DNA of 64,000 nucleotides, from the UHGV virus genome UHGV-0038492; one strand, written 5' to 3'. Below the pieces are notes generated by a model, which did not search any database, was not told the origin of the DNA, and was given only the letters and a program-made list of their open reading frames with translations. Within the stretch, counting starts at the first letter, position 1, and each line of letters opens with the position of its first letter. Shown here piece after piece: positions 3,760 to 51,601 of the stretch. The position numbers were made by a program, and so were the translations under genes. This stretch comes from a virus.

Positions 3760-6700
3760 TTAATCGCGAATGATTACCGCCTGCACTTTATTGTTGGTGT
3801 CGATAAACGACATTACGCGCTCCTTGTTAAGATAAGGAGGTATCGGTAACGCAGCGTAATCCGCCAGGTTGTTATTAAACTCGGTTGCCACTAGCGCATT
3901 AAGCGTTTCGGGGTCTGAGCTTGTCCCGGCCAATTCCATAACACGTACACGATTTAACGAGGAGTAGTTGCTGATATAATCCAACAGCGTACCGTAGAGT
4001 TTATTCCCGGTTATGCTGTCCGCCGTAGAGCGGATATTGGCACGCACTTCGTCCTCATAAAGTCCCCCTAATCCGTAGTAAATAGGGGTGTACGGATCGT
4101 TAACGATAGGCGCGAGGTTGAACCCGGTTAAACGGTCGGTCAGCGAGATTTTCTGCGTAGTACCACCTGCCGCCGTACAGCTTACGTATTTATCTGCCGC
4201 AGACAAATACACCACAATGGTGTAAACAGTACCTGCTAAGGTCAGCGTTGCGTTAAACGTTAATTCGTTATTCGCACCACGCGTGTGGGTAAATGACACG
4301 TCAGGTTGTAACGTACTCCACGGTGCTGGGGTAACACGTTTGGTCGGCGTGAAGCCTAACACCACAGATCTCCCGTTACCGAAGTTTAAACCAAACCCGG
4401 CGTAACAATACTCACCGTTACTGTCGGTTAAACGATAACCACGGGTGATAAGTAACGACAATCGCATAAACTCGTCATCGGTATTTTTCCAGCAACCCAG
4501 GACGGTTTCTAGCACCGTACCGGTTTTTGCGTTGCTTTCGGTTTCCCAACTGACACGCATCCCCGCATTGTTAAATACCGGGAACAGGTTGTGGATAAAT
4601 CCGTGAACGTTATCACTTACCCCTTTCGCATCAAACACCCACTTCGACGCAAGCTGGTCGTATTTCACACCATCGAGTGCTTTATATTCGTCACCAACCA
4701 CATAACGCCAGTCTGCTTCGCCACGCGCAACCGCTTGAAGTCCAGAAGCCCAGCAGGGCGCACCTACTGTTAAATTGCTTAACCCCAGCACTGCGCGCGA
4801 AGCAGAACGCTGAATGTGTGCGTTGTCATTGGCGATGTGGTCTTTCAGCTCACGGAAATCACCTAACCGTGTCACGTTACGTAGTTCAGTAACGAACACT
4901 TCAGAAAGGTCGTTAATACCGATCAGCCCCACGCGCGTCATGGTATCCGTTTCAGCCTGACTGTAGCTGTCGTGAATAATGTACTTCGCTTTGTTATCGA
5001 CAATGTCAACAAAAATCCCTGCGTAAACTTCCTTATTCAGATTTGGGAAACGTTCAGTGACGTTAACCGACATCAACGGCACGTCGTACGTTTCACCGCC
5101 AATGAAATACGTGGAAGCAGGAAGTGTCACCAGGATATTGTCTTTAACCGTAACGTCGATTAAGTCGTTACCGGACTTACCAAAGCGAATAATGTCAACG
5201 CGCGCACCCGAGTCAACCCCGCCGACGGTGTTCTCCAAATTTTCAATCTGGGAAGTCTGCGCCATCACCACACTACTATCGAGTGCTAAAGTGGCATCAT
5301 CCACATCCAGACCGAATTTAATCAGACCCCGTTTCGTGGTGTCTGCGTTTTCAACACCGAACACAGAAGACGGGTGTTGGTGAACCTTCGGTGAGTATTT
5401 GTCTAACTCAGTCTGTTGTGCAACAGAAATCGGCAGGTCGAGGTCCGGGGTATTCGCAACGTTACCTAAACCAAAGGTAATTTTGTCGATAGTGACCGAA
5501 CTGGTAAGCTGCATCTCGTTGATGTACGACTTGGCAGCAACCAACTTACCGGTAAACTCTGCGTCCAGTTTTTCAATTAGCGCAGGAGTCGCCGCGAGGT
5601 TTTCAGCCGTACCAAACTCGTCAGTCAACTGCCAACATGCTAACGTCGTGACGTCATTGGCAACCGGAAGGATAAACGTTGCGACAAACGGCGATGCTTT
5701 AATCCCGCTACCCGTAAGTTCCACGGTAGACGTCGACGCACCGTAGAACAGTCCTGTACCGCCTGCGGTATTACCCGGCAAATACGGCCCGACCGTAGTG
5801 GGGTCTAAGAGCTTCTTACCACGCCACAACAGTCCACGGTCATCGGGGTATAGCACAAGCTGGTTACCGCCTGCTTGTAACGTAACAGGGTTATTACCCA
5901 CGTTAACATCGGTGGAGCCTTGACCAATGAACTTAATGGATTTCGGATCAACGACGAACTGGGCACCTAAACGTTTTTCGTCAACTACACCAGGGGCCTT
6001 TTTGATGGTGACGTAGTTTCTGCTGTGGGAAGACTGGATACTGACCCTATCTGCAACGTTATTGATAAATCTCTTGAAGTGATAACGGTTTTCCAGTGCT
6101 TCTAACTCGGCATCCATGTTGTCGAAATTGACACGCGCACTGTAGGTTTTCCCGTTTACCGTAACGATAACGTCAAAAAGATTACCGGTTCGTTTCATCT
6201 GGAAACGTAACGTGAAATCACCATCAGGTATCACCGGGTCGGGTGCTTTGGAGATATAACGGACTTGTGGTACTGTACCGACGCCATATCCGCTAAGCGA
6301 CACTTCGATAGAAAGGCTATTCCCCCAGAGTGAGCCCTCCAACTCGACAAACTTACCAGAGTCGGTGCCCGGATTCTCGTAGAATCGCATCTGTACCGCA
6401 CCGACCGGTGAGTTATCTCCTGCAACTCTTGTACCCGTTACAATAAAGTCGATATCTTGTAAATCAGCGGGAACGCCGTTAAAATAACATCCGAATCCGT
6501 TTCTAGTTCCGCTGTAGCGAAGCGCCCCGTGGTATCTAATTCCGTCCGAAACGTAATATTCGCTAAAATACTGACTAACGTATTTCGACATCGACACAGG
6601 GTCGACTTCGGTAGTAAATGACGTAAAGCCAGGAAGCGTCGTAATCGTGCCGTTAGCGTTCTTGCTCGCCGATTCACGAAGCAGTTTTCTCTGGGCGGTT

Positions 6701-8085
6701 AGCGTTGCCTGTGTTGGGTATTTAGCGTTAACGTAGTCCGTTAACTGTTGCTTGGTTTTCCCGTAGGTTAACGCTGCATCGGACGCAATGCCGTTTAACT
6801 CTAACGCACGAATCGGACCCCAGGTGTCAGCGTGTGGGTTGTCTTTACGAGTGACGTGTTCGTGCGCAGGTGCGTTACGATAGAGCTGTTCTACTAACTG
6901 ATGGTACTTAACGATTAGCTGATAAACGTCATTACTTACGTCAGCTTCTGGCGCACCAGGTAACGCAAGGAATTGTGCATAATCGTTTTCAGCCGCCCAC
7001 CAGTTTAAGTTAACGTTGGTTTTGTATTTCAGCCACTTCGCAACATCCGTTTTGGTGTAACCTGCTGAGAATTCGTCTGGCGGTGTGTCAACGTTAAAGG
7101 TGTAGTCCATGGACTGTTTGTTGGTCGTCACCTCGATAACGTATACACCGTTACCCGGTTGACGGACAACGCTAAACGTTAACTCGCCTTTTAATTCGTC
7201 GTCGGTCAAACCGTTGATTAACGTATAATCGTAATCGGTCGAACCACTGCCTAACGCAACGGTCAGACGTAGGAAGATCTTACGTTGTTTTAATTGGAGA
7301 CGAAGGATACTTGCACCACCATTCGCGTAGCACAGCATCCAATCGATTTGTTCGTTCGGGTTAATACTCCCCATGTTCGGAAAAATAGCCGGGATACGGT
7401 ATTTCATCGACAGGGAATATTCATTTAACGTGGTGGTTTTGTACGTAACGGAGAAACGACGTTTAGCGGTATTGTAGGTATACCCACCTTTGTTGTCGTA
7501 CGTTGCGTACTGTTCAGACGTGATAACCGTACCATTAGCACGATGTTCGATATCTAACGTGTTACGCGCAATCGGGTCTACCCGATTCACCACGTTACCT
7601 AACGAATCACCTAAGCCCGCAATGGCCTGCATTAATTCCAGTTCGCCTTTCCAGTTTTCCCAGTCGAACTGAATGTCGACCGGTGGAAAGTAAACATCGC
7701 CGATAACGGTATCCCATTGACACGCAGACGGGTATTTATCTTTATTGAGTTCGCGTTCTGCGGTAATCTGTTCTTGGGTCGCTTCACCACAACCTACGGC
7801 GTGGTAATCTACCGTGAAATTCGATTTGTATTTGTCGTTAACAATCCAAATCATCCCGTGCACGAGATAGGCTGTGCGCAACATACCGGTCTCGTACGGG
7901 TGTGTAATAACGTAATCGTCGCCTAAGGTCAGTATTTTGCCGCCGCTCTTGACCACCAGGGATGTGGTGAAAAAAGGGGCGTGGGCAGGTACCAACATTC
8001 GGTACTTCGTACCAATGACGGCGACCGCTTCACCGGTTATTTTATTCCCCGGTTCTTTGAAGTGTGGGTCTAGGACGACAGCCAT
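3760..8085 (-). CDS. large virion structural protein (1441 aa), putative tail fibre / tail spike component
   Basis: Complete 1441-aa ORF in track; its stop lies 14 nt upstream of the start of the downstream tail-fibre gene (same strand); function inferred from size and neighbourhood only. Confidence 0.75.
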   Translation of the reverse strand: MAVVLDPHFKEPGNKITGEAVAVIGTKYRMLVPAHAPFFTTSLVVKSGGKILTLGDDYVITHPYETGMLRTAYLVHGMIWIVNDKYKSNFTVDYHAVGCGEATQEQITAERELNKDKYPSACQWDTVIGDVYFPPVDIQFDWENWKGELELMQAIAGLGDSLGNVVNRVDPIARNTLDIEHRANGTVITSEQYATYDNKGGYTYNTAKRRFSVTYKTTTLNEYSLSMKYRIPAIFPNMGSINPNEQIDWMLCYANGGASILRLQLKQRKIFLRLTVALGSGSTDYDYTLINGLTDDELKGELTFSVVRQPGNGVYVIEVTTNKQSMDYTFNVDTPPDEFSAGYTKTDVAKWLKYKTNVNLNWWAAENDYAQFLALPGAPEADVSNDVYQLIVKYHQLVEQLYRNAPAHEHVTRKDNPHADTWGPIRALELNGIASDAALTYGKTKQQLTDYVNAKYPTQATLTAQRKLLRESASKNANGTITTLPGFTSFTTEVDPVSMSKYVSQYFSEYYVSDGIRYHGALRYSGTRNGFGCYFNGVPADLQDIDFIVTGTRVAGDNSPVGAVQMRFYENPGTDSGKFVELEGSLWGNSLSIEVSLSGYGVGTVPQVRYISKAPDPVIPDGDFTLRFQMKRTGNLFDVIVTVNGKTYSARVNFDNMDAELEALENRYHFKRFINNVADRVSIQSSHSRNYVTIKKAPGVVDEKRLGAQFVVDPKSIKFIGQGSTDVNVGNNPVTLQAGGNQLVLYPDDRGLLWRGKKLLDPTTVGPYLPGNTAGGTGLFYGASTSTVELTGSGIKASPFVATFILPVANDVTTLACWQLTDEFGTAENLAATPALIEKLDAEFTGKLVAAKSYINEMQLTSSVTIDKITFGLGNVANTPDLDLPISVAQQTELDKYSPKVHQHPSSVFGVENADTTKRGLIKFGLDVDDATLALDSSVVMAQTSQIENLENTVGGVDSGARVDIIRFGKSGNDLIDVTVKDNILVTLPASTYFIGGETYDVPLMSVNVTERFPNLNKEVYAGIFVDIVDNKAKYIIHDSYSQAETDTMTRVGLIGINDLSEVFVTELRNVTRLGDFRELKDHIANDNAHIQRSASRAVLGLSNLTVGAPCWASGLQAVARGEADWRYVVGDEYKALDGVKYDQLASKWVFDAKGVSDNVHGFIHNLFPVFNNAGMRVSWETESNAKTGTVLETVLGCWKNTDDEFMRLSLLITRGYRLTDSNGEYCYAGFGLNFGNGRSVVLGFTPTKRVTPAPWSTLQPDVSFTHTRGANNELTFNATLTLAGTVYTIVVYLSAADKYVSCTAAGGTTQKISLTDRLTGFNLAPIVNDPYTPIYYGLGGLYEDEVRANIRSTADSITGNKLYGTLLDYISNYSSLNRVRVMELAGTSSDPETLNALVATEFNNNLADYAALPIPPYLNKERVMSFIDTNNKVQAVIIRD

Positions 8086-8152
8086 TATCTACTCCTATAG
8101 TCCGTGGGCGTCGAGTTCATACTATGACTTGAATCTATTGAGGAAAAGAGCT

Positions 8153-9420: not shown

Positions 9421-9462
9421 CTCCTACCCTCTTAGAGGGTAGGAGTAGCACGTTTTTTTTTT
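9421..9462. terminator. bidirectional intrinsic terminator hairpin (CTCCTACCCT / AGGGTAGGAG, 10-bp stem)
   Basis: Perfect 10-bp stem 9421-9430 / 9436-9445 with 5-nt loop; T-run 9453-9462 on plus strand; on the minus strand the stem is followed by GTTATTTATTTTTTT; sits between convergent gene ends 9415 (+) and 9466 (-). Confidence 0.7.
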
Positions 9463-11051: not shown

Positions 11052-11229
11052 TCATAGTATTACTTAAAATTTACAGATTATCCCTTTATTCTGCTACTCG
11101 GGATACCGGTAGGGGGTAGGGGGCAATATGTATACGGATATAAATAGCGGAGGTATACGTAGTATACCGACATACTCTTCCCAGAGGAACGTAGTGACTT
11201 CCTTATTCCTTTTTAGGAGAATAAACCCC

Positions 11230-17499: not shown

Positions 17500-17548
17500 G
17501 ACCCCGGTTCGTGCCGATTCGTCCGGGGTCCTTTTTACGACTTGTTTT
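17500..17548 (+). terminator. intrinsic terminator (GACCCCGG / CCGGGGTC stem + CTTTTT...TTTT)
   Basis: 8-bp stem 17500-17507 / 17523-17530 with 15-nt loop, followed by a T-rich tract; closes the secreted-protein operon. Confidence 0.65.
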
Positions 17549-17567
17549 ACCTAAAGGAGAATTAAAA

Positions 17568-18044
17568 ATGCGTTTATCTAATGTTTATCAAGCAGCCCAA
17601 TTCCATCACGAACTGACGGCTAAGCCTGAATATATTCGCCACAACTTAACGGTGGCTTGGAAACTGTTATTGATTGCTGATGCTGCACGGCACAACGACC
17701 AGGAAACTATTATCAAAACTGTGCGTACTTTACGCCCTATTGACCTGGAAACGATTTGGTCGTTTGACTTAACTCGAATTTATCATCGTCGTTTTAATGC
17801 GGCGGTGGATGCTATACGTCCTTATTTCCACTATTTGCAAGCAACATCGGACTGTGGTCCATCCTTAGAGTGGGTCTTGGTACAAAGCGTATGGAGCGAT
17901 TACATTTATCTCCTATCTTTAGAGACGGGTGAATGCATTATCGCTAACGAGGTATTCTCAACCAACGCTGAAATGTATCGTTCCCACGCTACTATCCAGG
18001 GTGTCTCACAGCCTATCTTATCACTCACGCACTTAGGGCTGTGA
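17568..18044 (+). CDS. hypothetical protein (158 aa)
   Basis: Track ORF 17511-18044 trimmed to ATG 17568 preceded by AAAGGAGAA. Confidence 0.65.
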   Translation: MRLSNVYQAAQFHHELTAKPEYIRHNLTVAWKLLLIADAARHNDQETIIKTVRTLRPIDLETIWSFDLTRIYHRRFNAAVDAIRPYFHYLQATSDCGPSLEWVLVQSVWSDYIYLLSLETGECIIANEVFSTNAEMYRSHATIQGVSQPILSLTHLGL

Positions 18045-18713: not shown

Positions 18714-18762
18714 GAGAGAACCTTCGGGTTCTCTCCCTTCTCTTTTATTTTTTTTCTTTTTA
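18714..18762 (+). terminator. intrinsic terminator (GAGAGAACC / GGTTCTCTC stem, TTCG loop, long T-tract)
   Basis: 9-bp stem 18714-18722 / 18727-18735, tetraloop TTCG, followed by CCTTCTCTTTTATTTTTTTTCTTTTT. Confidence 0.85.
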
Positions 18763-18791
18763 CACCACGCTCCGTGAATATGGAGGTGGAC

Positions 18792-21296
18792 ATGTTAAAA
18801 GTTGAACGTATTGTACTTAAAGGATTTACCGGAATGGGATTACACGAAATCGAAACCTTCGATTTTACTATCCATTCCCCGACCACCATTATCCTCGGTG
18901 GTAACGGCTGCGGTAAGACCAGCTTACTGTCCGTGTTTCTACCTATCGCACCTTCGAAATCCGAATTCCGTGACGGGGGTTCCTACACCAATATCTGTTT
19001 GGTTAACGACCATCGTTACAAGTTTAAAGTTGCACGTAAAGGCAACTCACTGGTTTGCGATATCGAGAACCTGACGACGGGTACCAAAATCGTCGAGCAA
19101 GGTAATGCGAAAGTGTACAACTCTCGCGTGGAAGAAATCACGGGTATTACAAAAGAGATTAAAGAGTTACTGAACGGAGAAGTGCTTTTAACGGATGCAG
19201 GAACGGAACTGCGTCGTAAGTGGTTCTACCGTTTAAGTACATCAGACTTAACGTACGCGTTAGGTTTTTATCAACGTTTACGAAAAAACCTAACGATGTT
19301 AAACGGCGGTATTGAAATCACCAGCCGCAAAATTGCAGAGTTGCGTACCCGCGTGATTGATAACGAGGAAGAACGTCAGCAGTTAGCAACACGGTTAAAA
19401 GCATTAGAAGCGGATTTACGTGAACTCAACAAACAGATCGAACAGCTGCCAGGTCTGAATCGTGACGTTACGGTGGCAACGATTCAATCGCTATTGCTTA
19501 AAATCGAAGCACCGATTAATGCTATCTTGGAACACCGTGGCGGATTACCTACGGAAGAACAGGTAGAGGAAGCACGACGCGTTGAAGCCACTGCCCGTGA
19601 AGCGGTGGTCTCTGCTGAAACAGAGCTGTCTATGCTAAACAAAGATTTGTCTTTGTTGATGGACGAGTCTACCCGCCAAGATTACCTGATGCGAAATCAT
19701 GAAGGGTTAAAAAACACGGTTGCGAAACTGCGCGAGTTATTAAAGCAGTGGGACACCGAACACCTTTTCCCTGAACTGTTTGCAGAGACCGTTAACATCG
19801 ACCAGCTTAAAGCAGCGACGGATGCGCGTGTCTGGGGACAACGTTTAGGAACAACGCTGGACGCCATTAAGTCAACGGAGCGGTTGAACGTACTGGAAGA
19901 GAAGCTGTTGACCTTAGACCAAAACTCGTCTGGGTTGCGTGACCGACTACAACGCGTTGAAAACGTATTGCAGAACCTCAACCACGAACGGAATCACTAT
20001 TTGGAAACCGCCGAGGTTGATTGTCCGCAGTGTCAATTTAAATTCCGTCCGGGTGTGCGTCGATCGCTGCCTGAATTGGAAGAAGCCATTCGTGGGCAGA
20101 TGGAGCAACGTAATACGTTACAGACTCAGCTTGATTCCGTGTTGCGAGACCGTACGGAATTAGAATCGGACGTTAATTACATGCGTCAAGTACGGGAAAT
20201 CGTTTTAACGTATTCGAAAGACCCGGTATTGAGTTTGTTCTTTAAACGTCTCCAGGAGCGGAATGTCTTTACGGATAACCGCAGTCAGTTCGGCAGTTTG
20301 TGCGCGGAGTTCGATCGTGAACTTTATTCTGCAATTGAGTACCACGAAACGATACACCGTTTTGCTAAAGCGGAAAAAGAGTGGGAAAATGCAGTTGCAG
20401 CGGTAGGTAACGTTGACGGTGCACTACAGCAGAAAATTGCCTTCCAGCAGGAACGTTTGGGTAAGGCGACAGAAACGCTCTCAGAGCGCCGTAGAGAGCA
20501 CGCAGTTGCTAATGATACCTTTTGTTATCTAAACGAACTTAAAGCCACTGTAGACAATTTTAATGCGGTTTTTGAGCGTTTAGAGAACGATGTTAAGGTA
20601 ACATTAACCAACACGGTGGTCGAAACGTTATTAAACGCCCGAGAAAACAAGTTGGATGCGTTCACCACAGCACGGGAACGGTACCGTCAAATGGAAAACG
20701 AACTCAACCAACTTACTGCGTTAGAAAAGGAGTTATCAGATTTACAAGCGCAGCAATTTAATAACAAACTGATGATTCAAGCGTTCTCACCTGAGAAAGG
20801 GGTGTTACGCAAATACTTCTACAACGCTATCGTGAGAATCACGGAATTGATGACGCGGTATATCGAACAAGTCTGGACCTACCCTATGCGGGTCATGCCG
20901 TGTGACTTAACCGACGGTGACTTAGACTACACGTTCCCAGTGCAGTTGAAAACCCATCCTGAACCGGTACCTGACGTACGGAAAGGGTCGAAAGCGCAGC
21001 GAGCCATCTTTAATTTGATGTTTCGTTTAACCGCTTACAAGGCCCTGAAACTTCATCAGTATCCGCTACTGTTGGATGAACCGTCAGAAGGGATGGATGA
21101 AGAACACCGAAATAACCTCGTTGGGTTTATTAAAACCTTGGCGAATTCTGGTGAGTTCTCTCAGTTACTGGTGGTGTCTCACGAAGCAGAAATTCATTCA
21201 AAACTTAACGAAGCCGCATACTGTGTTATTGAACCTGAAGGCGTAACACTGCCTGCGGTTTACAACGAAGGAGTAAAAATTGTCTACGCAAACTGA
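18792..21296 (+). CDS. Rad50 / SbcC-like ABC ATPase with coiled coil and CxxC zinc hook (834 aa)
   Basis: Track ORF 18774-21296 trimmed to ATG 18792 preceded by GGAGG; N-terminal Walker A GGNGCGKTS; central coiled-coil-like region with CPQC; C-terminal Walker B LLLDEP and H-loop VVSHEA. Confidence 0.8.
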   Translation: MLKVERIVLKGFTGMGLHEIETFDFTIHSPTTIILGGNGCGKTSLLSVFLPIAPSKSEFRDGGSYTNICLVNDHRYKFKVARKGNSLVCDIENLTTGTKIVEQGNAKVYNSRVEEITGITKEIKELLNGEVLLTDAGTELRRKWFYRLSTSDLTYALGFYQRLRKNLTMLNGGIEITSRKIAELRTRVIDNEEERQQLATRLKALEADLRELNKQIEQLPGLNRDVTVATIQSLLLKIEAPINAILEHRGGLPTEEQVEEARRVEATAREAVVSAETELSMLNKDLSLLMDESTRQDYLMRNHEGLKNTVAKLRELLKQWDTEHLFPELFAETVNIDQLKAATDARVWGQRLGTTLDAIKSTERLNVLEEKLLTLDQNSSGLRDRLQRVENVLQNLNHERNHYLETAEVDCPQCQFKFRPGVRRSLPELEEAIRGQMEQRNTLQTQLDSVLRDRTELESDVNYMRQVREIVLTYSKDPVLSLFFKRLQERNVFTDNRSQFGSLCAEFDRELYSAIEYHETIHRFAKAEKEWENAVAAVGNVDGALQQKIAFQQERLGKATETLSERRREHAVANDTFCYLNELKATVDNFNAVFERLENDVKVTLTNTVVETLLNARENKLDAFTTARERYRQMENELNQLTALEKELSDLQAQQFNNKLMIQAFSPEKGVLRKYFYNAIVRITELMTRYIEQVWTYPMRVMPCDLTDGDLDYTFPVQLKTHPEPVPDVRKGSKAQRAIFNLMFRLTAYKALKLHQYPLLLDEPSEGMDEEHRNNLVGFIKTLANSGEFSQLLVVSHEAEIHSKLNEAAYCVIEPEGVTLPAVYNEGVKIVYAN

Positions 21297-21480
21297 TTGG
21301 TGGCGTCAGTTACTAAGCGTTTTAGGGTTTAGCGTCATGGTGCTGGTTGCCATTCTGTACGTGCTATTTTGTATAACGGCGATTTTATGGGTGGTCTTAG
21401 CGTACGCGATTAGACTCGCCTGGGGTTCAATTTGGCACCAACGCGAATGTGAGTGGCGGTGTGTTGGAGGGAAGTCATGA
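21280..21480 (+). CDS. small membrane protein (66 aa)
   Basis: TTG start preceded by AGGAG, overlapping the end of the ATPase gene; very hydrophobic, about two transmembrane segments. Confidence 0.45.
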   Translation: MSTQTDWWRQLLSVLGFSVMVLVAILYVLFCITAILWVVLAYAIRLAWGSIWHQRECEWRCVGGKS

Positions 21481-21587
21481 TTGAGGGTATTCTGTTAACA
21501 CTTGGGTCGTTGTGGATTATTGGGAAATCCCTCAACTGGCTGATTAAAAAGTACGGATGGGCTTTCAAAGGCTCTACGCACAGTTAA
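21477..21587 (+). CDS. micro membrane peptide (36 aa, MIEGILLTLGSLWIIGKSLNWLIKKYGWAFKGSTHS)
   Basis: ATG overlaps the preceding stop (ATGA); one predicted TM helix; too short for the track. Confidence 0.3.
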   Translation: MIEGILLTLGSLWIIGKSLNWLIKKYGWAFKGSTHS

Positions 21588-21595
21588 GTTAGAAC

Positions 21596-21625
21596 CCCCT
21601 CCTGGGTAACTGGGAGGGCGTTTTA
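21596..21625 (+). terminator. weak hairpin terminator candidate (CCCTCC / GGAGGG + GTTTT)
   Basis: 6-bp stem with 10-nt loop and a short T-run. Confidence 0.3.
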
Positions 21626-21637
21626 CGAGGGAAAACC

Positions 21638-21766
21638 ATGACTGTTGTCAATACTACCAATGCTGCAATTGGCGCTTTATACAACGCGGAACTAACATGG
21701 GGTGCGGGATTTATTACCGTACTGCTTCTTGCCGCAGCCGCTTTTATCATTGGACGTTGGTTTTAA
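21638..21766 (+). CDS. micro membrane peptide (42 aa, MTVVNTTNAAIGALYNAELTWGAGFITVLLLAAAAFIIGRWF)
   Basis: ATG preceded by GAGGGAAAACC; one predicted TM helix. Confidence 0.35.
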   Translation: MTVVNTTNAAIGALYNAELTWGAGFITVLLLAAAAFIIGRWF

Positions 21767-21799
21767 TTTCAATCTTTTTGCGTCTGTAAGGTCTGATAA

Positions 21800-22243
21800 A
21801 TGGAAATTTATTTGTTGAACGCACTTTCTAAAATCGGTGAAGAACAAGCGAAAGATTTACTCGCACTTCATTACCGTTACTTAGATCACCAAGCAACGAT
21901 GCTGAAAATCAAAACCGCTGTACCGAAATTAAACGTGCGTCAACTGATCGAAGGCAACTGTGTTGTTCTGATTTATATCGACGATGTTGCGGTGGGTTAT
22001 TGCAGTTACCGTAATCGCAACGGGGTACTCAAAATTCGTTCGTTATACGTGCTACCCGATTACCGTCAGCGCGGGGTAATGAAAGAAATCTTCAAAGCGA
22101 TAGCCGCTGATGAAACATTCGGTGAAATTGCCATTGGGATGTACACGAAGTGCAAAGAAGCGAAAGAGTATTTCATTCGTCGTGGCTACAAAGCAACCTA
22201 TTCTCACGATAAAGAATGGGTGGATTTCAGCAAAACTTTCTAA
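21800..22243 (+). CDS. GNAT-family N-acetyltransferase (147 aa)
   Basis: LKIRSLYVLPDYRQRGVMKEIFKAI resembles the GNAT acetyl-CoA-binding motif region. Confidence 0.7.
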   Translation: MEIYLLNALSKIGEEQAKDLLALHYRYLDHQATMLKIKTAVPKLNVRQLIEGNCVVLIYIDDVAVGYCSYRNRNGVLKIRSLYVLPDYRQRGVMKEIFKAIAADETFGEIAIGMYTKCKEAKEYFIRRGYKATYSHDKEWVDFSKTF

Positions 22244-22253
22244 AACAATAAAG

Positions 22254-22304
22254 GCTCTCTTGACGTTCCTCACTATGAGTGTGAGATTTTTACGTCAGGA
22301 GAGC
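22254..22304 (+). promoter_or_regulatory. stem-loop that base-pairs the Shine-Dalgarno of the gene starting at 22310
   Basis: 12-bp stem GCTCTCTTGACG (22254-22265) / CGTCAGGAGAGC (22293-22304) with one G-U pair, enclosing a smaller CTCAC / GTGAG hairpin; the right arm contains the AGGAG ribosome-binding site. Confidence 0.4.
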
Positions 22305-22309
22305 TACTT

Positions 22310-22546
22310 ATGTTAAACAGTTTCGGTGTAGGTGGAATGGATACAAGCATTTGCTGGAAAGAATACGAACGCGCAAAAGCATTTCTCCAGCATCCCAACG
22401 TGGGTAAGATCGGTCAGGTGTGTTTTGGTAAACCTGCACTGACAGCCTGTATTCAAGGTGCGTTAGGAACGCTGCCACCTGAATCACCTTTCGAGCCTAA
22501 GGAGAATCCAGATGTTACCAGGAACCCAAACCCCGTATCTATTTAG
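22310..22546 (+). CDS. hypothetical protein (78 aa)
   Basis: Track ORF; RBS AGGAGAG; overlaps the next ORF by 35 nt in another frame. Confidence 0.5.
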   Translation: MLNSFGVGGMDTSICWKEYERAKAFLQHPNVGKIGQVCFGKPALTACIQGALGTLPPESPFEPKENPDVTRNPNPVSI

Positions 22547-22886
22547 TGAACCACTGGATAACAGCGACATCTTACAAATCTGTTATCAGTGTCACGAAAT
22601 CGGTGGCAGTGAACTTACGCGGGTTAATAAACTACTGTGGCTGATTCCAGAAATCGAATTACCGTTCGTTAAGCCGAGTTTGTGGCGTCGTGGTGCGTGC
22701 CGCGAAGCGTATATGCTGTCAAGATTTAACATTAATCTGGAGAAGGTCTGGGAGAAAATGAATGACGCCCAAACCCGAGAACAGATTACGCACACGCTAG
22801 AATTGCACCTTGCCATGAATCGCCTCGGTCTCGAACACGAAGGGCTGGAGTCCGTTATCAGTCAATGGGTGAAAAGGAATCGTTAA
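22512..22886 (+). CDS. hypothetical protein (124 aa)
   Basis: Track ORF; RBS AAGGAGAA. Confidence 0.55.
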   Translation: MLPGTQTPYLFSEPLDNSDILQICYQCHEIGGSELTRVNKLLWLIPEIELPFVKPSLWRRGACREAYMLSRFNINLEKVWEKMNDAQTREQITHTLELHLAMNRLGLEHEGLESVISQWVKRNR

Positions 22887-22993
22887 TGTCTAAAACGTAT
22901 ATAGCGATTTTGGTTGAGTTGGCGATTGGCGGAACGCGGTTTATCCCTGTGCATCAATTATGCTTACCTCACTCGGTAAGACCGTTATGTTAA
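22886..22993 (+). CDS. small ORF (35 aa)
   Basis: ATG overlaps the preceding stop (TAATG); RBS AAAGGAA; overlaps the start of the macro-domain gene; real-gene status uncertain. Confidence 0.25.
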   Translation: MSKTYIAILVELAIGGTRFIPVHQLCLPHSVRPLC

Positions 22994-23484
22994 CGATACT
23001 TCCAGAATCGGATATTGACAACGACCTGTTTAATGCGCCTGAGCGCTTCAAGGTCGTTACGATAAATTGCGTAGGGGCAATGGGTCGGGGTATCGCTTTA
23101 GCGTGCAGAGAACGCTATCCTGGGCTTTATCAGGACTACCGAGAACGTTGCTTCGCTAACGAAATACGAATAGGGAATGTGTATGTTTATCCCGAGGAAA
23201 ACTGCATTCTCTTACCAACCAAAACACATTGGAAACTAAAATCCCAGGTTTCTTATGTTATCGCGGGTATCACCGCGTTGGCAGATGCCGCAGAAAATTT
23301 AGAGGGTGGGGTGGCTTTACCGCCGTTAGGGATGGCTAACGGTTGGTTGACAAAAGCTGAACGTCAACAAATCTTTTTGTTTATCGAAAAGAAACTCGTA
23401 CCGAGGAGACAACATTACCGTTTCTATTTACCCGATACGCTTTACCAAGAAGCAAAACCTTTAATTCCAAACCTTTTTAAATAG
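22987..23484 (+). CDS. putative macro-domain (ADP-ribose binding / hydrolase) protein
   Basis: VVTINCVGAMGRGIALAC resembles the Gly-rich ADP-ribose-binding loop of macro domains and LPPLGMANGW the second conserved Gly motif; alternative start at 22960; assignment is motif-level only. Confidence 0.5.
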   Translation: MLTILPESDIDNDLFNAPERFKVVTINCVGAMGRGIALACRERYPGLYQDYRERCFANEIRIGNVYVYPEENCILLPTKTHWKLKSQVSYVIAGITALADAAENLEGGVALPPLGMANGWLTKAERQQIFLFIEKKLVPRRQHYRFYLPDTLYQEAKPLIPNLFK

Positions 23485-23584
23485 ATATTATCATTAGGGC
23501 ACACAACAAAGGAGTACCAGCTGTCCGCGCCGTGATTTCGTTCTACGGAACACGGAAATGTATAAATCCAACTGGAGAACTAGT

Positions 23585-24271
23585 ATGTTTCGTACCTTCT
23601 TTCTTTTACTGGTAACACTTTTCGCGTTTAACGCATACGCATCCAAATCCGCACCCAGTGCCAAACACCATCGTGAATTCGAAATGATTCAAGACCGTTT
23701 CGAACGTGTAAAACCGTTGATTGTGGAAATCTCCCGAAAGCAGGGTGTTGATCCTAAGTTGATGACCACGCTAATCTATCGAGAATCACGGTTTAATCCG
23801 AAGGCGTATAATCGAACGTCTAAAGCGCACAGTCTGGTTCAGATGCTACCGAGCACAAAGCGTAATTTACTAAAACTCTACGGCAACGAAATCGGACTTA
23901 GTCGTAACGCGGATTTGTATAATCCTCGTAATGCGGTGCTATTGGCTTCCGTCTACGTTAAACATTTAGAAAAGGGGTTGACTAAACGACTCAAACGCAA
24001 GCCCACTATTGCAGAAATTGCATTGGCTTATCACTGGGGTGAAAGTGGTGCACACGCCAGGATTAAAAGCAAGTCTCGGGCGGCACAACGAGAAATGGCG
24101 AGCTTTATGAAAGATGCAACGTTCTACAGTGCGAAAATCGACAAGCCTGTAGCATCTCGTCAGCTTGCGTTTGCGAAGAAACCAGAACGCCAGATTCAGT
24201 TAGCGGAAGTTAACCGAATTTGGGATACGATAAACACCAGTTTTCCATTTAAACAAGGAGTCACCCTTTGA
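23585..24271 (+). CDS. secreted lytic transglycosylase (SLT-domain, candidate endolysin)
   Basis: Track ORF 23558-24271 trimmed to ATG 23585 preceded by GGAGAA; signal peptide MFRTFFLLLVTLFAFNAYA; SLT family-1 signature YRESRFNPKAY...AHSLVQM. Confidence 0.8.
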   Translation: MFRTFFLLLVTLFAFNAYASKSAPSAKHHREFEMIQDRFERVKPLIVEISRKQGVDPKLMTTLIYRESRFNPKAYNRTSKAHSLVQMLPSTKRNLLKLYGNEIGLSRNADLYNPRNAVLLASVYVKHLEKGLTKRLKRKPTIAEIALAYHWGESGAHARIKSKSRAAQREMASFMKDATFYSAKIDKPVASRQLAFAKKPERQIQLAEVNRIWDTINTSFPFKQGVTL

Positions 24272-24777: not shown

Positions 24778-24783
24778 TACTTG

Positions 24784-24822
24784 CCCCTAATCCAATCGGA
24801 TTAGGGGTACTTTCATTTATTC
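24784..24822 (+). terminator. hairpin terminator, CCCTA...TAGGG family (CCCCTAATCC / GGATTAGGGG)
   Basis: 10-bp stem 24784-24793 / 24798-24807, 4-nt loop, moderately T-rich tail. Confidence 0.55.
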
Positions 24823-26326: not shown

Positions 26327-26360
26327 CCCTACTCCTCCGGGAGTAGGGTTATTCTTTTTT
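26327..26360 (+). terminator. intrinsic terminator, CCCTACTCC family
   Basis: 9-bp stem CCCTACTCC (26327-26335) / GGAGTAGGG (26340-26348), 4-nt loop, followed by TTATTCTTTTTT. Confidence 0.8.
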
Positions 26361-26927: not shown

Positions 26928-26937
26928 AATAAAAGCT

Positions 26938-26975
26938 ACCCTACTCCCGAAAAGGAGTAGGGTAATTTCTTTTAG
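26938..26975. terminator. bidirectional terminator, CCCTACTCC family
   Basis: 10-bp stem ACCCTACTCC (26938-26947) / GGAGTAGGGT (26954-26963), 6-nt loop; U-rich flanks on both strands; between convergent gene ends 26927 (+) and 26972 (-). Confidence 0.75.
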
Positions 26976-29960: not shown

Positions 29961-29965
29961 CAACG

Positions 29966-30005
29966 CCTCCTGTACCCTTCGGGGTACAGGAGGTATTTTC
30001 TTTTT
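29966..30005 (+). terminator. intrinsic terminator (CCTCCTGTACCC / GGGTACAGGAGG, TTCG loop)
   Basis: Perfect 12-bp stem 29966-29977 / 29982-29993, followed by TATTTTCTTTTT. Confidence 0.85.
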
Positions 30006-32296: not shown

Positions 32297-32964
32297 TGCT
32301 GATTGTTTTTAGTCAAGCGTTATCGATGGCACCGAGTTATATCCAGATACGCTTTTCAACAATTGCGCGTCAGCAGTGGGGCTTTAAAGCCCCCTATTCT
32401 GACGACCACTATACACTCGGTGAAATAGCACTTGAACTTGCTTTACGTTCATTGTGGGAAATCATCGCATTGTATAATGCGGGTTGTGATATACCGAAAG
32501 ATTGTTTCCCACAACGGGTGATTGCGCAAGGTACTACGAACACTTACGGTAATCCAGCATTGGTAGAAGAGTGCTTAGGCTACGCTAACCAGTCTGGGGA
32601 ACTGCAACACAACTTTAATCTGGTGATTAACAAAGTCTGGAGTGAGCTGGAAAGCTATCCTGAAAAGATTATCTGGTTTGATCGTAACCAATTCGTTAAG
32701 GAGGTGGCCAGTAAACGACCTGTACGTTTAGTTACCTTAAAACCTACCGATCTTGATTTGAAACAAACGTATCCCTTCCCGGAAGAAATTCGACTTTCTC
32801 CCGAAACTGTAGGTCACACTATTTTCAAACAAGGTGACGCCTGGATATTGCCTCACGATCTAGACCGTTTCCTGCTCAATTCCGATCAGATTCACTCCGG
32901 CTATGATTCTCTCGTAAAAGAGTTTCATATCGATCCCTATTTCACTAAAAACTTTCTTAGATAG
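32293..32964 (+). CDS. hypothetical protein (223 aa)
   Basis: Track ORF; start overlaps the preceding stop. Confidence 0.6.
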   Translation: MMLIVFSQALSMAPSYIQIRFSTIARQQWGFKAPYSDDHYTLGEIALELALRSLWEIIALYNAGCDIPKDCFPQRVIAQGTTNTYGNPALVEECLGYANQSGELQHNFNLVINKVWSELESYPEKIIWFDRNQFVKEVASKRPVRLVTLKPTDLDLKQTYPFPEEIRLSPETVGHTIFKQGDAWILPHDLDRFLLNSDQIHSGYDSLVKEFHIDPYFTKNFLR

Positions 32965-33001
32965 ATATTATTCAGGTGTAGAACCCTCGGAGTTAATCAC
33001 C

Positions 33002-33739
33002 ATGTTGAAAGTTTATGTCCCTCAATTACAACGTATTAATCCCTCGTTGTTCGAGGGATTCTTTTATAAAAACTGGCCACGGTTCTTCGAAGAATCCCTC
33101 AAAGATCCTAAGTGGACGACGATACAGGGGGAATTTTTCTGGACTGCACAATCGGCCTGTACCAACATCTTTGCTAACTTTGTCGGCGAAGTTATCAACA
33201 GTATCAACTCAAATATTCCTTTTGACCTAGAAAACGTAACCGTAGACCTGACCTCGATTTACGACGGGTATGATTGTTCCGATGTTAACTTCGAACATTT
33301 CTCTTCGGAAGAGGTTTGGGAGAAAGTGTATAACTGGTTGGAACATTATGTTAATACGCTGCTCTCACCGTCGATGTTATCGGGGTTCAATAAAGCGATT
33401 CTTCCTATCTACCACGACTTACTGAACGTTAAAGTAACGACGGGTTTAGTAGGGTACTGGTATTCCACCTACGACATGGAAAGCACGTTGTGGGAGAAAC
33501 AAATCAATGCGTACGGTATCGAGTACGGTGACTTTGAAGAAGTCTATCGCGGTTACTGGCCACACAGTTTCTACAGAAACAGAGAAGTGGGCGAACCATA
33601 TCTGTGGTCGTTTTATCGTTGCAACACCACGGGTGTTATTTATCTCGAAGACACCGGTGTGCAAATCCCTAACGGTGCTGATGTGACGTATTGTCAAATA
33701 CGCAAAGACCGGGGACACGTCATTTATAAGGATTATTAA
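33002..33739 (+). CDS. hypothetical protein (245 aa)
   Basis: Track ORF. Confidence 0.65.
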   Translation: MLKVYVPQLQRINPSLFEGFFYKNWPRFFEESLKDPKWTTIQGEFFWTAQSACTNIFANFVGEVINSINSNIPFDLENVTVDLTSIYDGYDCSDVNFEHFSSEEVWEKVYNWLEHYVNTLLSPSMLSGFNKAILPIYHDLLNVKVTTGLVGYWYSTYDMESTLWEKQINAYGIEYGDFEEVYRGYWPHSFYRNREVGEPYLWSFYRCNTTGVIYLEDTGVQIPNGADVTYCQIRKDRGHVIYKDY

Positions 33740-37993: not shown

Positions 37994-38090
37994 TTAAAAC
38001 CTCGGATTATAAGTCAGGGTTACATAGTAAAGTCTTTTTACAGTTCATCCTGAACTTATGACCGAGATTATCTCACAAAGGTAAAGCTCG

Positions 38091-42027: not shown

Positions 42028-42099
42028 TTAAAACCACCTCATTTTCAAAAAGAAGTCAGACAGATATTATTTACGTGAGACATTCTTTCGGAGTGAATT

Positions 42100-46256: not shown

Positions 46257-46261
46257 CACCT

Positions 46262-46300
46262 ACCCTACTCCTGTCTGGGAGTAGGGTATTTTCATTTTTT
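46262..46300 (+). terminator. intrinsic terminator, CCCTACTCC family
   Basis: 10-bp stem ACCCTACTCC (46262-46271) / GGAGTAGGGT (46278-46287), 6-nt loop, followed by ATTTTCATTTTTT. Confidence 0.8.
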
Positions 46301-46689: not shown

Positions 46690-46750
46690 TTTTTACAGTT
46701 GGGAACAGACTTATGTCTCCCCGAACTACATTCAAGCGGAGAAAACGATT

Positions 46751-50090: not shown

Positions 50091-50130
50091 GGGGTGCTTA
50101 TGTAGCACCCCTAATCATTATTCTTTTTTT
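50091..50130 (+). terminator. hairpin terminator (GGGGTGCT / AGCACCCC)
   Basis: 8-bp stem 50091-50098 / 50104-50111; T-run TTCTTTTTTTG about 10 nt downstream. Confidence 0.6.
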
Positions 50131-51037: not shown

Positions 51038-51601
51038 TTAGGCGTCTGGAACGATTCCAGAAGAGATATACGTCAAACCGTCAAGTTCGGTAACTTTAAT
51101 CAGTTTCGAAATATCCTTACCGTCAGACGGCAGTTCAGTTAAGTACACTTCCAACTGACCTGTCCAAGCCAAAGATCTCCCGTTCATGATAATGATGGTT
51201 TTATCTCTGCTGTCTGGTGCAGCCGTTGGGTTCTCAACTTCGTCATCCGTAATCTGCAAGTTATACTTCGTACGGAACAGTTCCAATACTTCAGAAACGG
51301 TAGTAGCGTTCACACCTGCGACAGAGACAACGAAATCACCCAACAGATGTTCCAAATCCAACCGACGATAAATAACGTCAATTTTACCAAACGTTTTTTG
51401 TTCAATAATTCCCTGGACGCTGAGTTGAGTATTTAATCGTGTAAATTGAGTTTCTGGTGTTTCTACTGCGGGGATATGTGCCGGTGTGCCGAAATTCAAT
51501 TTATCGATTGTAATACCTTTCTCTACCAAACCTGGATTCTTTTTTACTAATAACTCATAAACCAGTTGTTTTCCTGATTTACCTAATAGCGTATTAGCCA
51601 T
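51038..51601 (-). CDS. hypothetical virion-module protein (187 aa)
   Basis: Track ORF; last gene of the minus-strand operon with the 2377-aa and 733-aa genes. Confidence 0.7.
   Translation of the reverse strand: MANTLLGKSGKQLVYELLVKKNPGLVEKGITIDKLNFGTPAHIPAVETPETQFTRLNTQLSVQGIIEQKTFGKIDVIYRRLDLEHLLGDFVVSVAGVNATTVSEVLELFRTKYNLQITDDEVENPTAAPDSRDKTIIIMNGRSLAWTGQLEVYLTELPSDGKDISKLIKVTELDGLTYISSGIVPDA

What the first reader, a model, noticed from the sequence alone, without database searches (positions are those of the whole stretch)
22254..22304. Long stem that sequesters the ribosome-binding site of the gene at 22310
GCTCTCTTGACG (22254-22265) pairs over 12 positions (one G-U) with CGTCAGGAGAGC (22293-22304); the right arm contains the AGGAG SD six nt upstream of the ATG. 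A small CTCAC/GTGAG hairpin sits in the loop. This looks like a translational on/off structure rather than a terminator.
Basis: seen in the sequence. Interest (0 to 1): 0.4.

Follow-up and report, generated by a model that had tools for sequence, protein, structure and literature searches.

The report
Conserved jumbo-phage hairpin locking a ribosome-binding site
Between two genes of an E. coli jumbo phage related to SPN3US, a conserved RNA hairpin buries the ribosome-binding site of a small gene resembling the start of EF-Tu, and phage promoter-like and terminator-like signals sit inside it, so the gene can probably be translated only from RNAs that begin inside the hairpin.

Summary
G22253-T22266 pairs with A22292-T22305 (14 bp, 2 G-U). 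This buries AGGAG (22297-22301) upstream of ATG 22310, and a small CTCAC/GTGAG hairpin sits inside. The fold is -30.1 kcal/mol (z -4.2), and this is the most occluded Shine-Dalgarno (SD) site of 61 genes in the window.

The same two-tier hairpin sits between the orthologous GNAT gene and the small ORF in all 20 distinct relatives. It keeps pairing through compensatory changes, favours the sense RNA strand, and evolves about nine times more slowly than synonymous sites.

The hairpin also sits at a junction between transcription units. The inner hairpin plus T-run looks like a terminator. Its loop holds a phiKZ-type TATG start motif in four of six clades, always 33-34 nt before the ATG. The conserved TTTTACG...TATG is one copy of a bipartite box, TTTAC(R)-N14-TATG (4 hits against 0.37 expected).

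Best reading: RNAs arriving from upstream cannot translate the ORF, while RNAs starting at the loop TATG can. This parallels T4 genes e, soc and I-TevI. No transcript data exist. Two clades lack the loop TATG, so the release step remains inferred.

The parts
21800..22243 (+). Upstream GNAT acetyltransferase gene. Its stop codon TAA 22241-22243 lies 9 nt before the stem.
   Evidence: Pfam Acetyltransf_1/7/10 and phrog_3810. The same gene precedes the hairpin in all relatives.
22253..22266 (+). 5' arm of the outer stem (anti-SD: GGCTCTCTTGACGT).
   Evidence: RNAfold. Alignment columns 19-31 pair with 72-84 in 94.6% of cells, with 4 pairs showing compensatory changes.
22269..22285 (+). Inner hairpin CTCAC / loop TATGAGT / GTGAG. 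It is weak in this phage and 7-10 bp long in relatives.
   Evidence: Every relative has an inner hairpin. Stem covariation is seen, for example CACT-ATG-AGTG against CATT-ATG-AATG.
22274..22277 (+). TATG in the apical loop: a candidate phiKZ-type start site ('P1'), with predicted +1 at G22277, 33 nt before the ATG.
   Evidence: CACTATGAGTG is invariant in four clades, and the G-to-ATG distance is 33-34 nt in all 13 variants that carry it. TATG is a conserved footprint at other promoters of this phage group. The phiKZ motif comes from PMC4666361. No TSS data exist.
22287..22294 (+). T-run plus ACG (TTTTTACG). It could be the terminator-like tail of the inner hairpin, and TTTACG 22289-22294 is the upstream box of a bipartite promoter-like motif ('P2').
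   Evidence: Near-invariant in 20 sequences. The same tail follows canonical terminators. TTTACR-N14-TATG is enriched: 4 hits against 0.37 expected.
22292..22305 (+). 3' arm of the outer stem. It contains the Shine-Dalgarno AGGAG 22297-22301.
22309..22312 (+). TATG made of a T plus the start codon ATG. It is the downstream box of P2, exactly 14 nt after TTTACG. The predicted +1, G22312, would exclude the SD and the AUG.
   Evidence: The T before the ATG is invariant.
22310..22546 (+). Guarded gene: a 78-aa protein (SPN3US gp192 family, phrog_28329) resembling the N-terminus of EF-Tu.
   Evidence: EF-Tu chains, E = 5e-5 with a relative. pN/pS is 0.10-0.23.

Best explanation
The element is a conserved junction between two transcription units of SPN3US-like jumbo phages, built as a two-tier RNA hairpin.

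Shown:
- In any RNA that carries both arms, the outer 14-bp stem pairs the SD of the EF-Tu-like small gene with an anti-SD placed just after the GNAT stop codon.
- This pairing has been kept by selection in sense-strand RNA across six clades.

Inferred:
- RNAs coming from the GNAT unit either end at the inner hairpin plus U-run or, if they read through, carry a locked SD. The small gene is therefore silent on them.
- In most clades the apical loop holds a phiKZ-type TATG start site. RNAs beginning at G22277 lack the 5' arm, are unstructured, and present a free SD 33 nt downstream, so they are translated.
- A second box, TTTACG-N14-TATG, overlaps the SD arm and the start codon. It would start RNAs at the G of the AUG, serving only the downstream genes.

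Functionally this is the arrangement of T4 genes e, soc and I-TevI, transposed to a phage that uses its own multisubunit RNA polymerases.
For: Structure:
- MFE is -30.1 kcal/mol, z -4.2, with pair probabilities of about 1.0 in long contexts.
- The SD is the most occluded in the window (0.01 against a median of 0.44) and in the SPN3US region (gp192 lowest together with gp189, with the most negative MFE).

Conservation:
- All 20 distinct orthologous intergenic regions fold alike, at -28 to -37 kcal/mol.
- The outer stem is 94.6% paired, against 38-51% in slid controls. Compensatory changes occur at 4 pairs, including a changed SD (GGGGAAG) matched by CTTCCC.
- About 20 G-U cells are seen against 1 A-C. 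The sense fold is stronger than the antisense fold in 11 of 14 sequences. The covariance model scores 77-81 bits on the sense strand and 27-29 on the antisense strand, with a single copy per genome region.
- The intergenic region differs at 6 of 72 positions between clades whose synonymous sites differ by 0.71, and the ORF has pN/pS of 0.10-0.23.

Promoter reading:
- In phiKZ, TATG with G as +1 is required by the non-virion RNA polymerase (PMC4666361).
- TATG blocks are conserved in otherwise diverged intergenic regions of all clades.
- The loop sequence CACTATGAGTG is invariant in four clades while the stem around it covaries, and the G-to-ATG distance is 33-34 nt.
- An RNA starting at G22277 folds at only -6.6 kcal/mol, z +0.84.
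- TTTACR-N14-TATG occurs 4, 5 and 4 times against 0.37, 0.26 and 0.20 expected.

Precedent: T4 e, soc, 49 and I-TevI (PMC3014915).
Against: - No transcript 5' or 3' ends are available for any of these phages.
- TATG alone is not enriched in intergenic regions.
- Erskinevirus and the Wellington-like clade lack the loop TATG, yet they keep the hairpin. In Erskinevirus the ORF is still under purifying selection. So another way of freeing the SD must exist there, and it may be the general one.
- The inner hairpin of this particular phage is weak (5 bp), so its terminator role is doubtful here.
- The best-supported promoter box (P2) predicts a start at the G of the AUG, which cannot express the guarded ORF.
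Confidence: 0.5

Rival explanations
1. The element is essentially a nested, two-stage intrinsic terminator and 3'-end stabiliser for the GNAT transcription unit, fused to the next unit's promoter. The SD lies in the 3' arm only because the junction is compact, and translational silencing is a by-product.
For: - It starts 6-15 nt after the GNAT stop codon in every clade.
- The inner hairpin is followed by TTTTTACG, the tail seen after canonical terminators.
- The outer stem is followed by T-rich TAYTTATGTT.
- The same order (terminator, T-run, TTTACA, N14, TATG) stands upstream of the SMC gene.
- Elongated terminator stems and a TTAT-tailed terminator motif are reported in phiKZ and 201phi2-1.
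Against: - Other terminators in the window are GC-rich tetraloop hairpins that leave the next gene's SD outside the stem.
- When the SD changed in one clade, the 5' arm changed with it.
- The U-tracts are short or interrupted.
- The guarded ORF is under purifying selection, so it must be translated from some RNA.
Confidence: 0.2
2. The SD is freed on full-length RNA by a trans-acting step common to all clades. Candidates are endonuclease processing (an RNase III-type cut in the two-tier helix, or an RNase E cut in the AUUUUUA internal loop followed by decay of the 5' part), or a protein or helicase that binds the inner hairpin.
For: - Clades without the loop TATG keep both the hairpin and a constrained ORF.
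- The architecture (12-15 bp lower stem, asymmetric U-rich internal loop, 5-10 bp upper stem) resembles T7 RNase III sites. That resemblance is from my own knowledge and was not tested.
- The loop sequence is conserved in four clades.
Against: - After a single cut the 12-14 bp outer duplex would still hold the SD.
- The loop is free to vary within Erskinevirus.
- No candidate factor was identified.
Confidence: 0.15
3. Translational coupling: ribosomes terminating at the GNAT stop codon open the stem and allow initiation at 22310.
For: The stop codon is always close to the stem, at 6-15 nt.
Against: A ribosome with the stop codon in its A site reaches only about 6-8 nt beyond it (established ribosome footprint geometry, from my own knowledge). 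That opens at most 0-2 of 12-15 pairs, and none in the clades with a 9-15 nt spacing.
Confidence: 0.05
4. A DNA-level palindrome (protein-binding site or cruciform), or a sigma-70 promoter using TTGACG, with no RNA role.
For: TTGACG 22260-22265 resembles a -35 hexamer, and the element is an inverted repeat.
Against: - G-U pairs are tolerated while A-C pairs are not, and the sense fold is more stable than the antisense fold.
- TTGACG is not conserved; relatives have CTTACG, CTCACC or TTTCG.
- The promoter scan found no sigma-70-like site here.
- phiKZ-like phages transcribe with their own RNA polymerases.
Confidence: 0.03

Closest known systems
T4 gene e (lysozyme), soc, 49 and I-TevI leaders: an RBS-sequestering hairpin bypassed by late promoters inside it (PMC3014915)
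   Same: The SD lies in a stable helix on RNAs that arrive from upstream. A phage late-type start signal sits between the two arms, so its RNAs lack the 5' arm and are open.
   Different: There is no sequence relationship. The promoter would be a TATG-type site of a phage multisubunit RNA polymerase, not the gp55 TATAAATA promoter. A terminator-like hairpin is nested inside, and a second promoter-like box overlaps the SD and AUG. No transcript mapping has been done, and two clades lack the loop motif.
mobE RBS-sequestering hairpin of phage Aeh1 (Gibb & Edgell 2009, listed in the references of PMC3014915)
   Same: An intercistronic hairpin in a large lytic phage that occludes the RBS of a small gene.
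   Different: Different phage family, gene and sequence. I did not read that paper, so this is a lead only.
phiKZ / 201phi2-1 transcription signals: late TATG (+1 = G), middle AAanTTACc at about -24, and conserved terminators followed by TTAT (PMC4666361, PMC10914365, PMC11512511)
   Same: A TATG start motif. A TTAC-containing box about 20 nt upstream, here TTTAC(R)-N14-TATG. Terminator and promoter are tightly juxtaposed.
   Different: Here the SD of the next gene lies inside the promoter spacer and inside an RNA stem. No such SD clamp turned up in the papers I searched.
Rho-independent terminators of the same genome (for example 24782-24809, 26327-26348, 29965-29994)
   Same: A hairpin just after a stop codon, followed by a T-rich tail that often ends in TTTTTAC/TTTTAAC.
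   Different: Those are single GC-rich tetraloop hairpins and leave the next SD unpaired. This one is two-tiered, with a 25-nt interior, and its 3' arm is the SD.

Membership tests
T4 e/soc/I-TevI-type translational gate (works-like test) | The SD and/or AUG is held in a stable helix in the long transcript. | tested here: met
   14-bp stem, -30.1 kcal/mol, z -4.2, SD unpaired probability 0.01. Conserved with covariation.
T4 e/soc/I-TevI-type translational gate (works-like test) | A promoter lies between the arms, so that its transcripts lack the 5' arm and are open. | tested here: inconclusive
   The loop TATG is conserved at 33-34 nt from the ATG in 4 of 6 clades, and the truncated RNA folds at only -6.6 kcal/mol. 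It is absent in Erskinevirus and the Wellington-like clade. No TSS data exist.
T4 e/soc/I-TevI-type translational gate (works-like test) | Transcription from upstream reads into the hairpin. | not testable with these tools
   There is no separate terminator between the GNAT gene and the stem. RNA data are needed.
T4 e/soc/I-TevI-type translational gate (membership by descent) | A T4-type late promoter TATAAATA and homology to the T4 leaders. | tested here: not met
   No TATAAATA is present in 22244-22309. The host phage is SPN3US-like.
Intrinsic terminator | A stable hairpin directly followed by a U-tract, placed downstream of a stop codon. | tested here: inconclusive
   The inner hairpin plus ATTTTT was flagged by the scan, and its TTTTTACG tail is shared with canonical terminators. 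However, the inner stem is only 5 bp here, and the tract after the outer stem is interrupted (TACTTATGTT).
phiKZ-type non-virion RNA polymerase promoters | A TATG with G as +1 (late type), and an upstream TTAC-containing box about 20-24 nt before the start (middle type). | tested here: inconclusive
   The motifs are present: TATG at 22274 and TTTACG-N14-TATG at 22289-22312. The bipartite motif is enriched (4 against 0.37, 5 against 0.26, 4 against 0.20) and conserved at orthologous sites. Start sites were not measured.
Any Rfam family (riboswitch, leader, known phage RNA) | A match to a curated covariance model. | tested here: not met
   cmscan of 21500-23000 at E <= 10 gave no hit at the element. 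No alternative fold competes with the stem.
RNase III processing site (T7 R-site type) | Cleavage by RNase III in a roughly 20-bp irregular helix. | not testable with these tools
   Only an architectural resemblance: two stems and an asymmetric internal loop.

The most novel reading that the evidence does not exclude
SPN3US-like nucleus-forming phages, where transcription and translation are separated in space, may use a compact 'terminator + promoter + SD clamp' cassette. The start site of the next unit sits in the apical loop of the previous unit's terminator, and an anti-SD arm makes any read-through RNA untranslatable. Promoter choice alone (loop TATG or TTTACG-N14-TATG) would then decide whether the EF-Tu-mimic gene, or only the genes after it, is expressed.
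Probability: 0.3. Interest if true: 0.6.

Novelty: new member of a known kind. Interest (0 to 1): 0.45.

Why it matters
This would be a comparatively supported cis-regulatory RNA in the SPN3US group of jumbo phages, whose promoters and terminators have not been mapped. Neither the paper library nor Rfam returned one.

It gives a precise and cheap experimental target: one 70-nt intergenic region with predicted RNA ends at G22277, about 22291 and G22312. It also yields a bipartite promoter motif, TTTAC(R)-N14-TATG, that could be used to annotate these genomes.

The guarded gene encodes a protein that resembles the N-terminus of EF-Tu. Tight translational control of such a protein hints at an interaction with the host translation or defence machinery. 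If the hairpin proves to be only a compact terminator, the finding is ordinary.

Tried and rejected
- **Sigma-70 promoter using TTGACG.** It was not found by the scan and is not conserved.
- **Repeated or mobile element.** The arm sequence is not repeated, and the covariance model R1 finds one copy per 50-64 kb.
- **Rfam.** No match.
- **Alternative or competing folds and a thermosensor.** The stem persists in 300-600-nt contexts and at 25-42 C.
- **TATG enrichment in intergenic regions.** It is not enriched. Only its conservation and the bipartite motif are informative.
- **A loose ACTATG/CTTATG motif.** This was post hoc. It was superseded by the TTTACR-N14-TATG test.
- **Descent of the hairpin from a host tuf leader.** A blastn search against E. 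coli genomes found only a phage-like 'plasmid'.
- **The MAFFT alignment of the inner hairpin** is not in structural register, so its pair counts (56-74%) understate pairing.
- **Alignment A3** from cmsearch contained three antisense hits and was not used.
- **My 'hairpin then TTTTA[AC]' scan** was too permissive, so only the clear intergenic cases are cited.
- **An early-promoter-like reading of the Erskinevirus interior (AGATAT...)** did not fit the AGATAT(AT)nTAC consensus.
- **Literature search** for TSS data on SPN3US-like phages, or for SD-sequestering structures in phiKZ-like phages, found nothing.

Full report
**1. Observation**

RNAfold extends the stem by one pair at each end. G22253-T22266 pairs with A22292-T22305, giving 14 bp with two G-U pairs. 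The stem encloses CTCAC 22269-22273 / GTGAG 22281-22285.

The 87-nt region folds at -30.1 kcal/mol, against -16.9 +/- 3.1 for shuffles (z -4.2). The stem has pair probabilities of about 1.0 in 87-, 301- and 601-nt contexts and persists from 25 to 42 C.

Stems of at least 12 bp with loops of 3-45 nt occur 10 times in the window, against about 1 in shuffles. Six of the ten are ordinary terminators. AGGAG is 22297-22301, and ATG 22310 starts a 78-aa ORF. Among 61 gene starts in the window this SD is the least accessible, with mean unpaired probability 0.01 against a median of 0.44.

**2. Context**

The window is from a jumbo phage.
- Upstream lie an SbcC/SMC-like gene and a GNAT acetyltransferase (21800-22243).
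- Downstream lie the 78-aa ORF, a 124-aa ORF, a macro-domain protein and an SLT transglycosylase.
- Megablast finds no close relative among deposited phages.
- tblastn places the window with SPN3US (Seoulvirus) and the Erwinia phages of Erskinevirus and Machinavirus. The region is collinear with SPN3US 150-200 kb and phiEaH2 74-124 kb.
- A circular 221,873-bp 'plasmid' of an E. coli urine isolate (NZ_CP173450.1) is 97.6% identical over 3 kb. The host is therefore probably E. coli.

**3. Conservation**

Loci were found through the neighbouring proteins, not through the RNA. They comprise ten phage records and IMG/VR and metagenome contigs.

All have the same layout: the GNAT stop codon, 6-15 nt, the hairpin, then the ATG. 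The 20 distinct intergenic sequences each fold into the same two-tier hairpin at -28 to -37 kcal/mol.

On the alignment:
- The outer stem is paired in 94.6% of cells, against 38-51% when the partner is slid.
- Four pairs show changes on both sides: UA to AU in SPN3US; CG to UA and UA to CG in the Wellington-like clade, where the SD itself became GGGGAAG and the 5' arm became CTTCCC; and GC/CG/UA/UG at column 28-75.
- RNAalifold recovers the same 12 pairs.
- About 20 G-U cells are seen against one A-C cell.

Other measures agree.
- The sense strand folds better than the antisense strand in 11 of 14 sequences.
- A covariance model scores 77-81 bits on the sense strand and 27-29 on the antisense strand, with one copy per genome region. 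The structure therefore acts in sense-strand RNA and is not a repeat.
- Between the window and its 85%-identity sister clade, the intergenic region differs at 6 of 72 positions, while synonymous sites of the adjacent ORF differ by 0.71.
- The ORF has pN/pS of 0.10-0.23 in three clade pairs. Both the hairpin and the gene it guards are under purifying selection.
- In SPN3US, gp192 has the lowest SD accessibility of 63 genes (tied with gp189) and the most negative MFE.
- Rfam has no match.

**4. What else is inside the hairpin**

(a) *Terminator-like module.* In every sequence the inner hairpin is followed by a T-run and ACG, giving (A)TTTTTACG. The same tail, a T-run ending in TTTTTAC/TTTTAAC, follows canonical intergenic terminators in the window, SPN3US and phiEaH2.

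(b) *Loop TATG.* In four of six clades the apex reads CACTATGAGTG.
- The stem around it covaries, for example CATT-ATG-AATG in Caitlin.
- The 11-mer is invariant, and its G lies 33-34 nt from the ATG in all 13 variants.
- In phiKZ the late promoter of the non-virion RNA polymerase is 5'-TATG-3' with G as +1. All four bases are required, and the beta-like subunit reads them on the non-template strand.
- TATG alone is too short to be enriched, but it is a clear phylogenetic footprint in this group. The divergent region upstream of 37238(-)/38091(+) keeps a TATG on each strand, about 30-35 nt before each ATG, in all clades. The regions upstream of the orthologues of 3760-8085(-), 46751 and the SMC gene do the same.

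(c) *Bipartite box.* The unexplained invariant blocks TTTTACG and T-ATG turned out to be one copy of a bipartite motif, TTTAC(R)-N14-TATG.

| Region | Hits | Expected from shuffles |
|---|---|---|
| Window | 4 | 0.37 |
| SPN3US region | 5 | 0.26 |
| phiEaH2 region | 4 | 0.20 |

- All but one hit (an extra one in SPN3US at L055 40956, not checked further) lie at four orthologous intergenic sites: the SMC gene, this element, and the gp215 and gp227 orthologues.
- The spacing is exactly 14 nt. The spacer sequence is unconserved except in this element.
- The geometry matches the phiKZ middle promoter, AAanTTACc at about -24 with a TATG at the start.
- In this element the spacer is the SD arm, and the TATG is a T plus the start codon. 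The predicted start, G22312, would give RNAs without the SD or AUG of the small ORF.

**5. Mechanism**

Shown: any RNA carrying both arms has its SD locked in a very stable helix that is under selection.

Inferred:
- RNAs from the GNAT unit end at the nested terminator or carry a silent small ORF.
- RNAs initiated at the loop TATG (G22277) lack the 5' arm, fold at only -6.6 kcal/mol (z +0.84), and are translated.
- RNAs from the TTTACG-N14-TATG box would serve only the downstream genes.

Functionally this is the design of T4 e, soc, 49 and I-TevI, where long early RNAs hide the RBS and late promoters inside the structure give open RNAs. From my own knowledge, these phages are nucleus-forming. 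If so, their RNAs fold fully before they meet ribosomes, and a -30 kcal/mol clamp should be close to absolute.

**6. Weak points**

- No RNA end data exist for this phage group.
- Erskinevirus and the Wellington-like clade lack the loop TATG but keep the hairpin. The Erskinevirus ORF is still constrained. Either another internal start exists there or a common trans-acting release (processing or a binding factor) operates.
- Within Erskinevirus the loop varies freely. This argues that the invariant loop of the other clades has a sequence-specific role, but it does not say which.
- The inner hairpin of this phage is weak.

I give the full model 0.5. The narrower statement, that this is a selected SD clamp on read-through RNA, I put at about 0.8.

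The rivals are a compact nested terminator with incidental SD overlap (0.2), factor- or nuclease-dependent release (0.15), translational coupling (0.05; the geometry opens at most 0-2 pairs), and a DNA-level palindrome or sigma-70 promoter (0.03; contradicted by the G-U asymmetry and by the non-conservation of TTGACG).

**7. The guarded gene**

Relatives of the ORF carry [16 protein letters not shown]...[10 protein letters not shown], which matches EF-Tu residues of about 9-36. phmmer against PDB sequences gives E = 5e-5 to EF-Tu chains. Pfam GTP_EFTU matches below threshold. The P-loop GKT is replaced, so the protein is not a GTPase. The window copy is more degenerate. Why such a protein needs tight control is unknown.

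**8. Novelty**

RBS-sequestering hairpins bypassed by internal promoters are textbook in T4. This is an undescribed, well-conserved example in a different phage lineage with different transcription machinery. It is nested with a terminator-like module and two promoter-like boxes.

I rate it a new member of a known kind, of moderate interest. The by-products, the TTTAC(R)-N14-TATG motif and the EF-Tu-like gene, may be as useful as the hairpin itself.

Noticed in passing
window 22310-22546; L009 1465-1797; L002 1501-1710: The small ORF behind the hairpin resembles the N-terminus of EF-Tu. Relatives carry [26 protein letters not shown], matching EF-Tu [24 protein letters not shown] (E = 5e-5 against PDB EF-Tu chains). 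The P-loop GKT is lost. It may be a decoy or mimic, but its function is unknown. pN/pS is 0.10-0.23.
   Followed up: partly
window 18759-18782, 38037-38060, 46692-46715 (and 22289-22312): The bipartite motif TTTAC(R)-N14-TATG occurs 4 times against 0.37 expected. It is always intergenic, on the gene strand, and at orthologous sites in SPN3US and phiEaH2, with exact spacing and a variable spacer. It is a likely promoter class, with geometry like the phiKZ middle promoters.
   Followed up: yes
window 23483-23491, 32963-32971, 42062-42070: Three exact copies of AGATATTAT, all intergenic and upstream of + strand genes. SPN3US and phiEaH2 have AGATAT(AT)nTAC, often followed by GGTGAG/GTGAGA, at orthologous places. 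This is a candidate early (virion RNA polymerase) promoter.
   Followed up: partly
window 20756-23818 against NZ_CP173450.1 (L057): A circular 221,873-bp 'plasmid' of E. coli strain 98232 (urine isolate, Egypt) is 97.6% identical to the window here. It is evidently a jumbo-phage genome deposited as a plasmid. PGAP left the small ORF unannotated. No close relative exists in the phage isolate collection, only metagenome contigs of 220-228 kb.
   Followed up: partly
window 8118-8126: The overlapping divergent TATGs CATA-C-TATG (palindrome TCATAGTATGA) sit 33 nt upstream of the 1441-aa gene 3760-8085(-). They are conserved in SPN3US (gp170/gp171) and phiEaH2, and look like back-to-back start sites.
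   Followed up: partly
window 50091-50111: The hairpin GGGGTGC-TTATGTA-GCACCCC is followed by a T-rich tail, has a TATG in its loop, and lies 51 nt before gene 50153. It is a second case of a TATG in the apex of a terminator-like hairpin. phiEaH2 has one before its gp227 orthologue (GCGGGTGT..TATG..ACACCCGC).
   Followed up: partly
window 9421-9445, 26327-26348, 26937-26964, 46261-46288: Terminator hairpins share a sequence family, CCCTACTCC...GGAGTAGGG. This is reminiscent of the conserved terminator motif reported for phiKZ.
   Followed up: no
window 33050-33103, 51442-51503, 19258-19295: Three other stems of 12-14 bp with large loops (14-38 nt) lie inside coding regions. They are unexplained.
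   Followed up: no
window 11100-11130: The SD region of the putative gene 11128 (GGTAGGGGGTAGGGGG) is the second most occluded in the window, with unpaired probability 0.06. The start call was not verified.
   Followed up: no
window 17511-17571 and 18774-18794: Longest-ORF starts are probably wrong. ATG 17569 (after a terminator and the SD AAAGGAG) and ATG 18792 (MLKVERI, as in relatives) are the likely true starts.
   Followed up: partly
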